In this document: piece after piece, positions 48,556-53,332 of the stretch | Position numbering within the stretch: the first letter of the stretch is position 1 | How the letters are laid out: every line of letters begins with the position of its first letter | Source: Deinococcales bacterium | GTDB lineage: Bacteria > Deinococcota > Deinococci > Deinococcales > JAAFIG01 | Assembly (NCBI GenBank): GCA_031414595.1 | Contig: JANNVX010000093.1 | Location: forward strand, 1-54,522 | Direction of reading: 5' to 3' | Length of the DNA: 54,522 nucleotides | The notes under the pieces: model-generated | The model's database searches: none | Told to the model about the DNA's origin: nothing | The model's input: the letters and a program-made list of their open reading frames with translations, nothing else | Translations under genes and position numbers: made by a program

Positions 48556-48967
48556 CGTACACTTCCCTTTGGACAAACTTCGTCTTGATTGGGAGTTTAT
48601 GCCCTGCCAGACGGAAGGCTTCGCGGGCTTGTTCTTCGGTCACACCTTCAACCTCGAACATCACACGACCCGGTTTAACCACTGCCACCCAGTATTCAAC
48701 TGCACCTTTACCGCTACCCATGCGCGTTTCGGCTGGTTTTTTGGTAATTGGCTTATCTGGGAAGATGCGGATATAAATTTTACCACCACGGCGAAAGTAC
48801 CGACTCATGCTGATACGGCAGGCTTCAATGTGGTTGCTGCGAATCCAAGCAGCTTCCATCGCAACCAGACCGAAATCTCCGAAGGCGATATAATCGCCGC
48901 CTTTGGTCGAGCCGCGCATACGACCCTTCATTTGCTTGCGGAACTTCATACGTTTTGGAAGTAGCAT
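48542..48967 (-). CDS. rplP: 50S ribosomal protein L16
   Basis: [21 protein letters not shown]. Confidence 0.97.
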
Positions 48968-49749
48968 TATGCGCCTCCCTTCTCTGGACGACGAGCGCGA
49001 GCGCCTGGGCGGGTGCGATTGCCACCACCATTACGACGATCATCACTGCCACTCTTGCCACCATCTGCTCCACCCCTTGACATTGGGCGGGCGGCTGGAC
49101 GAGTACCATCTTGCTTACCAATCACTTCGCCATTAAAGACAATCACTTTAATACCGAGCTTACCGTAAGTGGTCAGGGCTTCAGCAAAACCGTAATCAAT
49201 ATCGGCACGCAAAGTGTGAAGTGGTACACGACCTTCCATGCGGGTTTCTTTACGACCTTGCTCAGCGCCACCAAGACGACCCGAAACCACGATTTTGCAA
49301 CCCTTCGCGCCGGATTCCATGACTTTTTGGATGGCTTGCTGCATCGCACGCTTATAGGCAAAACGGCGTTCGATTTGCTCGGCAATACGCTGAGCAATGA
49401 GCGGGGCGCTGGTGTTTGGATTACCAACTTCTTCGACATTGACGGCGACCGTGCTGTTATGACCAACTACGGCGGTCAAGGTATCACGCAACTTTTTGAT
49501 GTTTGCGCCGTCTTTACCGATGACCACGCCCGGCTTAGCGGCTTTAACGGTCACATTGACTTGGTGGGCTGCACGTTCGATGTTGATCGTGGCAACGCCA
49601 GCGTTATTGAGTTCTTTAGTGACCATTTTACGGATTTTGCTGTCCTCAACAATTAGTTTAGCATAATCTTTTTTGGTCGCAAACCATTTAGACAAGTGGT
49701 CTTTGTTAATCCCGATGCGTAGACCGAGTGGATTGATTTTATTACCCAT
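48967..49749 (-). CDS. rpsC: 30S ribosomal protein S3
   Basis: [29 protein letters not shown]. Confidence 0.97.
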
Positions 49750-50474: not shown

Positions 50475-51311
50475 TTATCTCGAGTTCTTACGGCGAGAAA
50501 TGATGAAGCTACTCGAGGTGTTACGCTTCTTACGGGTTTTACCACCCTTAGCAATCTTACCCCAAGGCGATACTGGCGTGCGTCCTGTTGGAGCGCGTCC
50601 TTCACCACCGCCGTGTGGGTGGTCTACTGGGTTCATCGAACTGCCGCGTTGATGTGGCTTATTGCCCATCCAACGTTGACGACCTGCCTTACCGATAACC
50701 ACGTTCTTGTGATCGGCATTGCCAACCACGCCAACTGTGGCATAGCATTCGGTGTGAACCCGACGCAATTCTCCCGAAGGTAGACGAAGCACCACATAAT
50801 CGCCTTCTTTACCTTGGACTTGAGCGCTTGTTCCAGCACTGCGAGCCATTTTTGCACCACGTCCAGGTACTAATTCAATACTGTGGACGACTGTACCAAC
50901 CGGAATAAAACGTAACGGCATGGCATTACCGACTCGAGGTTCGGCTTCTGGACCCGAAACAATTCGGCTACCTATTTCTAAGCCGTCTGGCGCGAGGATA
51001 TAACGCTTCTCGCCGTCGAGGTAATGCAGCAGGGCAATGTTTGCCGAGCGGTTTGGATCGTATTCGATAGCGGCGACTTTGGCTGGCACGCCACCCTTGT
51101 CACGGCGTTTGAAATCAATCACACGATACAAGCGCTTATGTCCGCCACCAATAAAACGACTGGTGGTACGACCCGTATTGCTGCGTCCACCAGTTTTAGG
51201 CAGTGGTTCAGTCAAAGACTTTTCTGGGCGCTTCTTGGTTAAGTTACTAAAGTCAAGGGTCGTGATGTAACGACGGCTTGGCGTATACGGACGATATTCT
51301 TTGGTTGGCAT
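50475..51311 (-). CDS. rplB: 50S ribosomal protein L2
   Basis: [21 protein letters not shown]. Confidence 0.97.
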
Positions 51312-51312
51312 T

Positions 51313-51603
51313 TTAATTTGCCCCCTCAAGCGATTCGATCTTTTGTCCTTCGGCTAACTGCACAATCGCCTTACGGCGAGCCGCAGTCAAACCAGCAAAA
51401 CGACCAACCCGCTTATGAGCGCCGCGCACGTTTTGGACATTGACGGACACCACTTTAACGCCAAATGCTTTTTGCACCGCGTTCTTGACTAAAGTTTTAT
51501 TTGCCCCGGGATGAACCCAAAAGCTGTACTTGCCTTCTGCCATAGCAGCGTAGGCTTTTTCACTCGAGACTGGCTCGAGCAGCACGTCATAAACGGCGTT
51601 CAT
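51313..51603 (-). CDS. rplW: 50S ribosomal protein L23
   Basis: [24 protein letters not shown]. Confidence 0.95.
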
Positions 51604-52709
51604 GCGTCACCTTCTTTGTTTTCAGTTGACACTGCGCGTCCAGCCACTAATTTCTCGGTTAAAGCAACAAAACCAGCTTCATCGCCGCTTGCGAGTAAGG
51701 CAGACTGTTCTGCCCATGTACCAATACTTGGGTGTGAACGCATTCCAGCCGACTCGAGGGCAGCTTTGAGGCTATCTTCGCTTGAGGCTGCAAGTTGTGC
51801 GAATGTATTGATTCCAGCCGCCAACAGCGCGTCATTGATTTTTGGACCAATTCCTTCGATGCGTTTTAGGTCGTCGCCAGCAGCAGCTTTCTTGGCAGCT
51901 TTCGGAGCAGCTTCAACCACTTTGGCTGGTTTTGCAGGAGCAGCCGCTTTTGCTTCGGCAGCAATCGCAGCTTTCGCAACAGTACCTTTAGGACCTTTGG
52001 AGGGTCTAACCACTGCTTCTGGCATTGGATTGGCTTTCAAGGCATTGGCTTGATTACTCGCTTTTACCGCAGCAGCCCGAGCTTCGCTTTTCTCGGCTTG
52101 GTCAGCTTTGAAATTTAGGCTTGTACCAACTGCCTCGAGAACTGCTTTGTCGGCAACCAATTGCTCGTGACGCAAAACGTCATAGCAATTTAAGCCAGCC
52201 GCTTTAACGGCAGTGACCCAGTGTAAATTCTTAGCTGCACGAATTGCCATCAGGTCGTTGGTGACTAAGAACACACGTTCAGAGCCGTCCATGCCATTGG
52301 CTTTTGCCCAAGCAAGAAAACCCTTGGTTTTGCCATCAAGGTTAAAACCATCTACGGCAAGAACTTTGCCTTCGGCAACTCGGCTCGAGACCGCCATGGC
52401 TAAGCCCAACTTACGGACTTTTTTAGGCAGTGTGTAGTCGTAACTGCGTGGTTTAGGACCAAAAGCTGCGCCACCACCAACGTAAATCGGAGCGGAACGG
52501 TCGCCGTGACGGGCGTTGCCGGTTCCCTTTTGGCTGTAGAGCTTTTTACCTGTGCGGCTGACTTCGGCTCTCGTTTGGGTACTGGCAGTACCACGGCGGC
52601 GCTTGGCGAGTTGCCAATTGACCACTTCGTACAAGACATGGGTTTTTGCTGTCGGGAGATTCAACTCGAGACTACCCGGATTATTTCCAATAACGCTAAT
52701 GCTCGGCAT
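51600..52709 (-). CDS. rplD: 50S ribosomal protein L4 with C-terminal Ala/Lys linker and HhH domain
   Basis: RGTASTQTRAEV, QKGTGNARHG, FGPKPR; tail DDLKRIEGIGPK. Confidence 0.95.
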   Translation of the reverse strand: MPSISVIGNNPGSLELNLPTAKTHVLYEVVNWQLAKRRRGTASTQTRAEVSRTGKKLYSQKGTGNARHGDRSAPIYVGGGAAFGPKPRSYDYTLPKKVRKLGLAMAVSSRVAEGKVLAVDGFNLDGKTKGFLAWAKANGMDGSERVFLVTNDLMAIRAAKNLHWVTAVKAAGLNCYDVLRHEQLVADKAVLEAVGTSLNFKADQAEKSEARAAAVKASNQANALKANPMPEAVVRPSKGPKGTVAKAAIAAEAKAAAPAKPAKVVEAAPKAAKKAAAGDDLKRIEGIGPKINDALLAAGINTFAQLAASSEDSLKAALESAGMRSHPSIGTWAEQSALLASGDEAGFVALTEKLVAGRAVSTENKEGDA

Positions 52710-53332
52710 TATTTCCCGCCTCCCTTCTTGGCTTGCTTAATCACCACAAGACCACCATTTGCACCCGGAATCGCACCCTTAATTAAAAGCAGATTTTCCG
52801 AAGCACGAACCTCAACAACCTCGAGATTCTGGGTAGTAATGCGTTCAACACCATAGTGACCCGGCATTTTTTTACCTTTAATAACCCGACCAGGGGTTTT
52901 ACGCGCACCAATCGAACCACCACGACGATGCCATTTCTTCGCACCGTGCGAAGCTGGACCACCTTGGAAATTCCAGCGCTTCATCACACCAGTAAAACCG
53001 CGTCCCTTAGAAGTCCCAACCACGTCCACTTTTTCGCCAGCCGTGAAAATTTCGGCGGTAATGGTGTCCATCTCTGGGGCGTAATCGCGGAATTCACGCA
53101 AGTGACGCATCGGGGCAGATTTTGCTTTCTCGAGATGACCAAGTTCTGGCTTGCTCAAGGCTTTTTTCGGGGTCTCACCGAAACCAATTTGAACTGCACT
53201 GTAACCATCGTTTGCTGGGGTTTTACGCTGCACAACTGGGCAGGGTCCCGCCAGCACGACAGTCACTGGGATAACCTTGTCATTTTTCCAGACTTGGGTC
53301 ATACCGACTTTTGTGCCGAGGATGCCTTTCAT
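52709..53332 (-). CDS. rplC: 50S ribosomal protein L3
   Basis: KVGMTQ, DGYSAVQ, SKGRGF, KGAIPG. Confidence 0.97.

What the first reader, a model, noticed from the sequence alone, without database searches (positions are those of the whole stretch)
51600..52130. Ribosomal protein L4 fused to a histone-like Ala/Lys linker and helix-hairpin-helix domain
Seen: L4 is 369 aa versus the usual about 205. After the core come about 75 aa of Ala/Lys/Pro linker and DDLKRIEGIGPKINDALLAAGINTFAQLA...WAEQ, in one frame whose stop overlaps the rplW start (ATGA). Known: this HhH (DUF4332-like) module is appended to L21, S2 or NuoE in some bacteria; I do not recall it on L4. L4's globular domain is surface-exposed. 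Inference: a tethered nucleic-acid or RNAP-binding arm on the 50S (transcription-translation coupling, nucleoid tethering or autoregulation).
Basis: partly seen in the sequence, partly recalled or inferred. Interest (0 to 1): 0.75.

Follow-up and report, generated by a model that had tools for sequence, protein, structure and literature searches.

The report
Ribosomal protein L4 with tethered HhH module
The only L4 ribosomal protein gene of this uncultured Deinococcales bacterium really is fused to a floppy linker and a small helix-hairpin-helix domain, but the same add-on of unknown function is also found on many other ribosomal, respiratory and storage proteins, so it is one more host of a widespread tag.

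Summary
rplD (51600-52709, minus strand) encodes a 369-aa uL4: core 1-195, an Ala/Lys/Pro-rich linker 196-271, an ~87-aa helix-hairpin-helix (HhH) module 272-358, and an ATGA overlap with rplW. It is not an artefact. The fusion occurs in 11 of 18 other genomes of the same family, including a single-contig genome where it is the only L4. An independent DNA run and an RNA-library contig bridge the junctions. The module is under purifying selection as strong as the L4 core (dN/dS 0.04-0.13); the linker varies from 27 to 99 aa. In a sister genus L4 is canonical and a closely related module sits on L19. Elsewhere the module is on NuoC/NuoE, ATP synthase gamma, L20, L21, L27, S2, RC-LH1 protein-O/Urf1, a large amylase-like protein of this genome, and many membrane-anchored tandem arrays. 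This speaks against an L4-specific or RNAP-specific role and for a generic tethered binding arm. Its ligand is unknown; my best guess is nucleic-acid backbone (about 0.4). No solved structure or functional study exists. This scan noted the same module on L27 in another genome. Verdict: a new host (L4) of a known but uncharacterised module.

The parts
51600..52709 (-). rplD, whole ORF: 369-aa uL4 with C-terminal linker and HhH module (stop included)
   Evidence: Pfam and NCBIfam; closest solved L4 is D. radiodurans 1j5a_K, E 8.1e-80
52125..52709 (-). uL4 core, residues 1-195 (includes the tunnel loop, about residues 42-90)
   Evidence: PF00573 at 22-194 and TIGR03953 at 21-193; AF2 globular core pLDDT 72-92, loop 42-90 low as expected off the rRNA; dN/dS 0-0.19
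51897..52124 (-). Linker, residues 196-271: predicted helix 200-226, then a disordered Ala/Lys/Pro-rich stretch 227-271
   Evidence: AF2 gives helix 200-226 at pLDDT 51-63 and 227-277 below 50; composition and net charge +7; length 27-99 aa and always net positive in 38 of 38 L4 fusions; dN/dS 0.17-0.57
51636..51896 (-). HhH module, residues 272-358: five helices, signature DDLxxIEGIGPK ... TWxxQA ... GD ... LxxGR
   Evidence: HHH_5; local matches to the C-termini of L21, NuoE and S2 models; AF2 pLDDT 86.9; fold hits of (HhH)2 type, Z 5-7; dN/dS 0.04-0.13; family signature
51600..51635 (-). C-terminal 11 residues ([11 protein letters not shown]) and stop; carries the SD-like GAAGGTGA and the ATGA overlap that couple rplW translation
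   Evidence: EGDA end conserved in 12 orthologues; the canonical L4 of the sister genus keeps the same ATGA overlap
51313..51603 (-). rplW (L23), start overlaps the rplD stop
52709..53332 (-). rplC (L3), upstream neighbour in the S10 operon

Best explanation
SHOWN: this is the organism's only uL4. An ancestor of three genera of an uncultured Deinococcales family added to it a flexible linker (short helix plus about 50 disordered residues) and one copy of a mobile, roughly 87-aa (HhH)2-type module. The module is kept by purifying selection. The linker is free to change in length and sequence. Translational coupling to rplW is preserved. A closely related module sits on L19 in a sister genus, where L4 is canonical. 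It also sits on NuoC and on an amylase-like enzyme in the same family, and on L20, L21, L27, S2, NuoE, AtpG, Urf1/protein-O and membrane anchors elsewhere. INFERRED: because the attachment point on the large subunit is interchangeable and the hosts are unrelated machines, the module does not tune L4 or the exit tunnel. It acts as a generic arm, reaching up to roughly 20 nm, that ties the whole particle to a common cellular ligand. From the strictly conserved G-I-G-P-K hairpin, the conserved basic residue after it, the tandem arrays and the net-positive L4 linker, I take the ligand most likely to be nucleic-acid backbone. That would be nucleoid DNA or RNA, bound weakly and without sequence preference, keeping ribosomes near the nucleoid or transcripts.
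For: Real and conserved: the L4 fusion is present in 11 of 18 other family-f1 genomes (g1 7/7, g2 2/2, g3 2/2). It is the sole L4 in single-contig G013 and in G000. All 11 named records are Deinococcales or Deinococcota MAGs. DNA contigs of another study tile the junctions, and a 566-nt contig of an RNA library spans core, linker and module. Selection: dN/dS for the module is 0.043-0.126 (9 of 13 pairs computable), for the core 0-0.194, for the linker 0.165-0.565. Beads-on-a-string model. Position independence: L19 is fused in 5 of 6 g5 genomes, and L4 is canonical in the 4 of those where it was found. L19 is canonical in 8 genomes with a fused L4. L4, L19 and part of the NuoC tails form one clade (support 89/86) apart from the amylase-like tails. 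Promiscuity. 252 of 260 retrieved proteins carry the module at the C-terminus, and 102 of 260 have one N-terminal membrane-anchor helix followed by K/R. Ligand hints: G286 is 100%, G288 96%, P289 90% conserved, and position 290 is basic in 78% of 251 units. Arrays reach 21 units. All 38 L4 linkers are net positive. The fold matches are (HhH)2 domains, many of them DNA-binding.
Against: The module is acidic: 86% of 435 units are net negative, median pI 4.9, and this one is -3. Among the best fold matches are the acidic, protein-binding NusA AR repeats (Z 6.4-6.5). None of the hosts seen is a DNA enzyme. On ATP synthase gamma (a rotor subunit, from textbook knowledge) a firm anchor to DNA would be awkward. 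Linker charge is not conserved across hosts (-5 to +20). In Rdv. sulfidophilum the Urf1 linker is cleaved and the module is missing from the mature protein (PMC13066640, passages read). No binding experiment exists; the authors who met the module call its function obscure (PMC12079452, passages). The 260 proteins analysed are the best-scoring hits of two searches and therefore a biased sample.
Confidence: 0.4

Rival explanations
1. Protein-docking module. The acidic (HhH)2 domain binds a protein partner, as NusA AR2 binds the RNAP alpha C-terminal domain. On L4 it would recruit RNAP (transcription-translation coupling) or another common factor to the 50S.
For: Acidic units. NusA AR2/AR1 are among the top fold matches (2jzb_B Z 6.4, 1u9l_B Z 5.6, 6ib8_C TM 0.73). 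W332 and Q335 are invariant and the GD and GR motifs are conserved outside the hairpin.
Against: The Z scores are in the range the tool calls common for small helical domains. An RNAP-specific partner does not explain NuoC, AtpG, amylase-like or membrane-anchor hosts. The NusA AR repeats, as I recall them, lack the GhG hairpin that is strictly kept here.
Confidence: 0.2
2. Self-association tag ('velcro'). Modules bind each other, so tagged ribosomes, complexes, storage enzymes and membrane-anchored arrays co-cluster.
For: Multivalent arrays of 2-21 units and membrane-anchored forms. There are only 2-5 tagged proteins per genome, always including the amylase-like protein and one large-subunit protein. 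(HhH)2 and SAM-like folds often oligomerise (recalled); SAM domains are among the fold matches.
Against: No direct evidence of any kind. A rotor subunit (AtpG) carrying a cross-linking tag is hard to reconcile with this.
Confidence: 0.12
3. Cleavable passenger. The linker is cut after translation, so mature L4 is of canonical size. The fusion then serves only to make the free module in step with ribosome synthesis.
For: Urf1 of Rdv. sulfidophilum is found cleaved in its Ala/Pro loop, by structure and SDS-PAGE (PMC13066640, passages). In D. shibae only the N-terminal part of protein-O is seen (PMC12079452).
Against: Cleavage in those preparations may be a purification artefact. Free-standing single-unit genes would be simpler. 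The swap between L4 and L19 keeps a ribosomal host, which suggests that attachment matters.
Confidence: 0.08
4. L4-specific regulator. The arm modifies an L4 function (S10-operon autoregulation, tunnel or assembly role).
For: L4 regulates its own operon in E. coli (recalled). The fusion lies in the S10 operon.
Against: A closely related module is on L19, outside the S10 operon, with a canonical L4 in the sister genus. The module is found on many non-ribosomal hosts.
Confidence: 0.03
5. Assembly artefact or decaying junk extension.
For: The window comes from a metagenome-assembled genome of 120 contigs.
Against: The same architecture is present in 11 other genomes, including a closed one, and in 37 further database clusters. 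Contigs of other studies bridge the junctions. Module dN/dS is 0.04-0.13.
Confidence: 0.01

Closest known systems
Long-form bL21, bS2 and NuoE of Alphaproteobacteria (NCBIfam NF008915/NF008916 = PRK12278, NF008966 = PRK12311, NF009040 = PRK12373)
   Same: The same C-terminal module follows a low-complexity linker. The tail matches model ends 152-222/223 (E 6.6e-13), 316-397/400 (1.4e-11) and 266-330/334 (8.6e-6).
   Different: The host protein is uL4, the lineage is Deinococcales, and the whole-protein cut-offs of those models are not met (different hosts). The function of the module is unknown there too.
Urf1 / protein-O of RC-LH1 (D. shibae 8yy9_O; Rdv. sulfidophilum 9wqv_a)
   Same: These are the only PDB entries whose sequences contain the module (E 2.7e-8 and 1.4e-3). 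They have an Ala/Pro-rich linker, and the papers note the shared domain with NuoE and others.
   Different: The host is a membrane hairpin. The module is not resolved in either structure and in one case is cleaved off. The authors state that the function is obscure.
   Same: The same module on another large-subunit protein, with the same conclusion of a promiscuous tag.
   Different: Different host and genome. Here there is the added evidence of an L4/L19 swap within one family.
uL4 'sunset domain variant' (NCBIfam NF051449) and other extended uL4 (e.g. the 301-aa chain 8crx_e)
   Same: uL4 with a C-terminal extension is a recognised variant.
   Different: The score is 133.1 bits against a cut-off of 385, and only the core and part of the linker align (model 16-233 of 285). 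The HhH module is not part of that model.
NusA acidic repeats AR1/AR2 and other (HhH)2 domains (Rad51/RadA N-terminal domain, PolQ, Pol X, UvrC)
   Same: Five-helix (HhH)2-like fold, Z 5-7; acidic like the AR repeats.
   Different: No sequence-level membership. There is an extra C-terminal helix and a distinct TWxxQA / GD / GR signature. The fold scores are in the non-specific range.
Lys/Ala/Pro-rich nucleoid-binding tails (PhaM, HupB, Hc1; recalled, not tested)
   Same: The linker composition on L4 and especially on the amylase-like protein (net +20) resembles them.
   Different: No family match. The basic character is host-specific and not a feature of the module.

Membership tests
Bacterial uL4 (TIGR03953 rplD_bact; PF00573) | Whole-protein score above the curated cut-off | tested here: met
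   192.8 bits vs 130.1; PF00573 175.9 vs 25.8
Bacterial uL4 | Position in the S10 operon between rplC and rplW; single copy in the genome | tested here: met
   only one L4 match in G000 and in the closed genome G013
uL4 sunset domain variant (NF051449) | Score at or above 385 bits and a match over the C-terminal part of the model | tested here: not met
   133.1 bits; model positions 16-233 of 285 only
HHH_5 (PF14520) | Score above gathering cut-off | tested here: met
   28.7 vs 27, residues 279-316
DUF4332 (PF14229) | Score above gathering cut-off | tested here: not met
   18.8 vs 23.2; related clusters carry DUF4332 in only 16-38% of members
COG3743-type C-terminal module of long L21/S2/NuoE/Urf1 | Local homology to the C-terminal ~70-85 residues of those proteins | tested here: met
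   E 6.6e-13, 1.4e-11 and 8.6e-6; protein-O E 2.7e-8
COG3743-type C-terminal module | Signature DDL-x2-I-E-G-I-G-P-K, T-W-x2-Q-A, G-D, L-x2-G-R | tested here: met
   All present in residues 279-358; conservation over 251 units below 70% identity
COG3743-type C-terminal module | C-terminal position after a low-complexity linker | tested here: met
   252 of 260 proteins have the last unit within 60 aa of the end; here 11 residues follow it
Histone H1-like / Hc1-like DNA-binding tail | Family-level match of the linker | tested here: not met
   No such family among the Pfam or NCBIfam hits, even at E up to 10; only the composition is alike
NusA AR-type protein-binding (HhH)2 | Specific fold match standing above background | tested here: inconclusive
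   Z 6.4-6.5, tied with unrelated HhH and SAM domains
DNA-binding (HhH)2 domains | Demonstrated nucleic-acid binding | not testable with these tools
   Only the motif conservation and the acidic charge could be assessed

The most novel reading that the evidence does not exclude
The module is a general address tag of bacterial cell organisation. By binding one common scaffold (the nucleoid, or membrane-anchored arrays of the same module) it positions ribosomes, complex I, ATP synthase, photosynthetic cores and storage-polymer enzymes. In this reading, a lineage needs one tagged large-subunit protein, and which one (L4, L19, L20, L21, L27) is interchangeable.
Probability: 0.15. Interest if true: 0.85.

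Novelty: new member of a known kind. Interest (0 to 1): 0.45.

Why it matters
A single small domain of unknown function is attached by flexible linkers to core machines of translation, respiration, photosynthesis and carbon storage in several phyla. The representative library holds 6571 clusters with it. No structure or experiment addresses it. The L4 case adds a natural experiment: closely related genera carry the tag on different large-subunit proteins. This shows that what matters is that the ribosome is tagged, not where. That makes the module's function testable in cultivable carriers such as L21 in Rhizobiales and protein-O/NuoE in D. shibae. It also warns annotators that these 'long' ribosomal proteins are not artefacts.

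Tried and rejected
1. Homodimer prediction of the module (2 copies, alignment A1) gave score 0.00 and no verdict. It counts neither for nor against self-association.

2. Foldseek against PDB found no match at E <= 1e-3. The VIA wide search gave only generic (HhH)2/SAM matches at Z <= 7.1.

3. The PDB sequence hits 8yy9_O and 9wqv_a raised hope of a solved module, but the papers show it is unresolved or cleaved.

4. Literature searches:
   - 'sunset domain' found 1 irrelevant paper.
   - 'COG3743' found 2 papers, one noting the domain on a Halomonas PhaC2.
   - 'DUF4332' found 1 unrelated paper.
   - 'unknown domain fusion protein' found 0.
   - NuoE + C-terminal extension found nothing on this module, judged by titles and abstract starts.
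   - uL4 + helix-hairpin-helix found 8 papers, none on bacterial uL4 fusions by title.
   - bL21 + C-terminal extension + Alphaproteobacteria hit the E. coli strain name BL21.
   - helix-hairpin-helix + ribosomal protein L21 found 0.
   Supplements of the two RC-LH1 papers (domain alignments) could not be seen.

5. The search of earlier findings by sequence returned an unrelated phage note.

6. The ESM Atlas returned only 'DUF4332/HHH_5 hypothetical' clusters at scores 0.82-0.90.

7. A phylum-wide search (201 genomes) found no match at E <= 1e-95 outside family f1. A very divergent fusion could be missed at that threshold, but 22 of 22 genomes of families f2-f5 are unfused by coordinates.

8. 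Laid contigs: no single DNA contig spans the whole gene, and some bins are uncovered in X7, X8 and X12. These holes prove nothing. RNA-library contigs do not by themselves prove transcription.

9. I considered a separate internal start for the tail. There is no evidence for it, since the frame is continuous in all 12 orthologues.

Full report
**1. The observation**

The minus-strand ORF 51600..52709 is uninterrupted and encodes 369 aa.
- Pfam places Ribosomal_L4 at residues 22-194 (E 9.2e-52) and HHH_5 at 279-316 (28.7 bits, cut-off 27). DUF4332 stays below its cut-off (18.8 vs 23.2).
- NCBIfam's bacterial rplD equivalog is passed (192.8 vs 130.1 bits).
- The nearest solved L4 is that of Deinococcus radiodurans (1j5a_K, E 8.1e-80, query residues 2-195).
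- The gene sits in a standard S10 operon after EF-Tu: S10, L3, L4, L23, L2, S19, L22, S3.
- Its TGA overlaps the rplW ATG (ATGA at 51603-51600), and an SD-like GAAGGTGA lies inside the last codons.
- Residues 196-271 have 25 Ala, 11 Lys and 7 Pro, net charge +7. Residues 272-357 are net -3, pI 4.9.

**2. Not an artefact**

Among 18 other genomes of the same family (f1), a fused L4 is present in 11: genus g1 7 of 7, g2 2 of 2, g3 2 of 2.
- Four genomes of genus g5 have a canonical L4 of about 200 aa.
- In three incomplete genomes no L4 was found.
- All 22 genomes of four other families of the order are unfused.

The own genome (94% complete) and the single-contig genome G013 each have only this one L4.

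In a sample of 201 genomes of the phylum, only f1 gave matches at E <= 1e-95. A scan of species-representative genomes returned 11 fused L4, all titled as Deinococcales or Deinococcota MAGs.

Of the 260 proteins retrieved (including this one) have an L4 core. All 38 cores are at least 74% identical to this core, so they come from one lineage.

Contigs from a different study's DNA run tile 51500-52327 across both junctions. A 566-nt contig from a metatranscriptome library (51788-52353, 18 differences) runs from the L4 core through the whole linker into the module. The tool cautions that such a contig is not proof of transcription.

**3. Anatomy**

AlphaFold2 on an alignment of 38 fusions gives four parts:
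- a confident L4 globular core, with the tunnel loop 42-90 at low confidence as expected without rRNA;
- a helix at 200-226 (pLDDT 51-63);
- a disordered stretch at 227-277 (pLDDT below 50);
- an independent helical domain at 279-358 (pLDDT 79-89).

The module alone, modelled with 47 diverse rows, has pLDDT 86.9 and five helices.

Twelve orthologues show a conserved core and a hypervariable linker. They also share a highly conserved module and a conserved EGDA end, which coincides with the rplW ribosome-binding site. Across the 38 clusters the linker is 27-99 aa long.

Pairwise dN/dS:

| Segment | dN/dS range | Pairs computable |
|---|---|---|
| Module | 0.043-0.126 | 9 of 13 |
| Core | 0-0.194 | 12 of 13 |
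| Linker | 0.165-0.565 | 9 of 13 |

The module is therefore functional. The linker is a spacer constrained mainly in composition: it is net positive in 38 of 38 L4 fusions, +2 to +10.

**4. What the module is**

Its sequence matches the C-terminal ends of NCBIfam models for long-form L21 (E 6.6e-13), NuoE (1.4e-11), phasin PhaH (2.6e-7) and S2 (8.6e-6).

A full scan of 1.84 billion cluster representatives finds 6571 clusters at E <= 1e-3 and 1709 at <= 1e-10. The top hits are tandem arrays with up to 21 matched stretches.

Among the best 120 proteins of 202-646 aa, the module is fused to these hosts:
- L4;
- L19 (4 clusters);
- NuoC (6);
- ATP synthase gamma (2);
- L20 (1);
- L27 (1, three units);
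- a metallophosphoesterase (1);
- proteins JGI labels 'predicted flap endonuclease-1-like 5' DNA nuclease' (the COG3743 label).

In the retrieved set of 260 proteins, 252 carry the module at the C-terminus. 102 have a single N-terminal hydrophobic helix followed directly by Lys/Arg. That is a membrane anchor with the module on the cytoplasmic side, by the positive-inside rule. This set is biased towards high scorers.

The signature over 251 units below 70% identity is DDL-x2-I-E-G-I-G-P-K ... L ... G-I-x-T ... L-A ... A-G ... P ... T-W-x2-Q-A ... G-D ... L-x2-G-R.

Fold searches give only generic (HhH)2/SAM-type matches:

| Match | Z |
|---|---|
| PolQ HhH | 7.1 |
| AF1548 | 7.0 |
| NusA / NusA AR2 | 6.4-6.5 |
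| Rad51 N-terminal domain | 6.2 |

By sequence, the only PDB entries containing the module are RC-LH1 protein-O of D. shibae and Urf1 of Rdv. sulfidophilum. In both papers (passages read) the module is not seen. In the second, the Ala/Pro loop is cleaved. [quoted passage not shown]

**5. The informative comparison**

Within family f1 the module is carried by only 2-5 proteins per genome. These are a large alpha-amylase-superfamily protein (1247 aa in this genome), one large-subunit ribosomal protein, and in some genomes NuoC.

The ribosomal host alternates:
- L19 is fused in 5 of 6 g5 genomes, and L4 is canonical in the 4 of those where it was found.
- L19 is canonical in 8 genomes that have the fused L4.
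- No genome shows both fused.

In a tree of 49 units, the L4, L19 and part of the NuoC tails form one clade (ultrafast bootstrap 89, SH-aLRT 86), separate from the amylase-like tails. There are few columns, so inner forks are weak. The module was therefore passed between L4, L19 and NuoC inside this lineage. The need it serves is met from two different large-subunit proteins.

**6. Mechanism**

Shown:
- a selected, flexibly tethered, independently folding module on the only uL4;
- an interchangeable attachment point;
- the same module on unrelated machines.

Inferred:
- It does not modulate an L4-specific function. The tunnel, S10 autoregulation, or a fixed contact with RNAP at one ribosomal site are therefore unlikely.
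- It ties the particle to a ligand common to all hosts.
- With a helix of about 27 residues plus about 50 disordered residues, the arm could reach roughly 20 nm (an estimate from contour length, not measured).

I rank nucleic-acid backbone first (0.4). The reasons are the invariant GIGPK hairpin, the basic residue after it, the tandem arrays, the membrane-anchored forms and the basic L4 linker.

Against this ranking:
- 86% of 435 units are acidic.
- The NusA AR-like protein-binding (HhH)2 domains are equally good fold matches.
- A rotor subunit (AtpG) is among the hosts.

Rivals:

| Rival | Confidence |
|---|---|
| Protein docking, including RNAP | 0.2 |
| Self-association | 0.12 |
| Cleaved passenger | 0.08 |
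| L4-specific regulation | 0.03 |
| Artefact | 0.01 |

A homodimer prediction gave no verdict and is not used as evidence.

**7. Comparison with the known, and novelty**

The architecture 'housekeeping subunit + low-complexity linker + this module' is already encoded in curated models for L21, S2 and NuoE. The RC-LH1 papers noticed it. This scan recorded it for L27 in another genome, with the same reading (e1-4969681).

An extended uL4 also exists as NCBIfam's 'sunset domain variant', but this protein fails that model (133 vs 385 bits).

I found no paper on uL4 with this module, nor on the module's function.

L4 is therefore a new host of a known but uncharacterised module: a new member of a known kind. 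The new element is the L4/L19 alternation, which argues for position-independent tagging of the 50S.

**8. Verdict**

- Observation: confirmed.
- Interpretation: partly supported. It is a tethered arm. It is not shown to bind nucleic acid or RNAP, and L4-specific roles are disfavoured.
- Interest: 0.45. The specific case is one more example, but the module itself is a widespread open question that this lineage helps to frame.

Noticed in passing
G000 contig C51, locus L015 3704..7447 (-), protein P0003: A 1247-aa alpha-amylase-superfamily protein (PF00128 at residues 331-688) of the same genome ends in a very basic Lys/Thr/Pro linker (net +20) and the same HhH module (45-48% identical to the L4 tail). 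Homologous fusions of about 1200-1500 aa occur throughout family f1 and in genus g13 of another family.
   Followed up: partly
L018 1346..2593 (-) (G013); also L054, L055, P0081, P0090: NuoC of the nuoA-B-C-D operon carries an Ala/Pro/Ser-rich linker, the module and then a further tail ending in a conserved KPRNPKIKRW motif. This is present in some f1 genomes (G013, G006, probably G010) but not found in the window's genome.
   Followed up: partly
L016 1509..2219 (+), L017 1276..2154 (-): In sister genus g5, L19 (about 235 aa) carries the module behind a short, nearly uncharged Ala/Ser/Val linker, while L4 there is canonical (L019).
   Followed up: yes
window 48967..49749 (-): Ribosomal protein S3 is 260 aa. 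The Pfam S3_C domain ends at residue 204 and is followed by a Gly/Arg-rich tail of about 55 aa (…[15 protein letters not shown]…RRPEKGGA). It was not compared with relatives.
   Followed up: no
L052, L053 (genomes G029, G037, family f4): Small proteins of about 200 aa in another family of the order combine an N-terminal coiled-coil-like Arg/Glu-rich segment with a divergent copy of the module (GRWDEL variant).
   Followed up: no
proteins P0004-P0261: About 40% (102 of 260) of the retrieved module proteins are N-terminally membrane-anchored, with 2-8 tandem units at the C-terminus (for example the Dactylosporangium 'helix-hairpin-helix domain-containing proteins'). Giant proteins of more than 3000 aa show up to 21 matched stretches.
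   Followed up: partly
window 50475..51329 (-): The L2 ORF is listed from a TTG (284 aa). An ATG six codons downstream (MPTKEY…) may be the real start.
   Followed up: no
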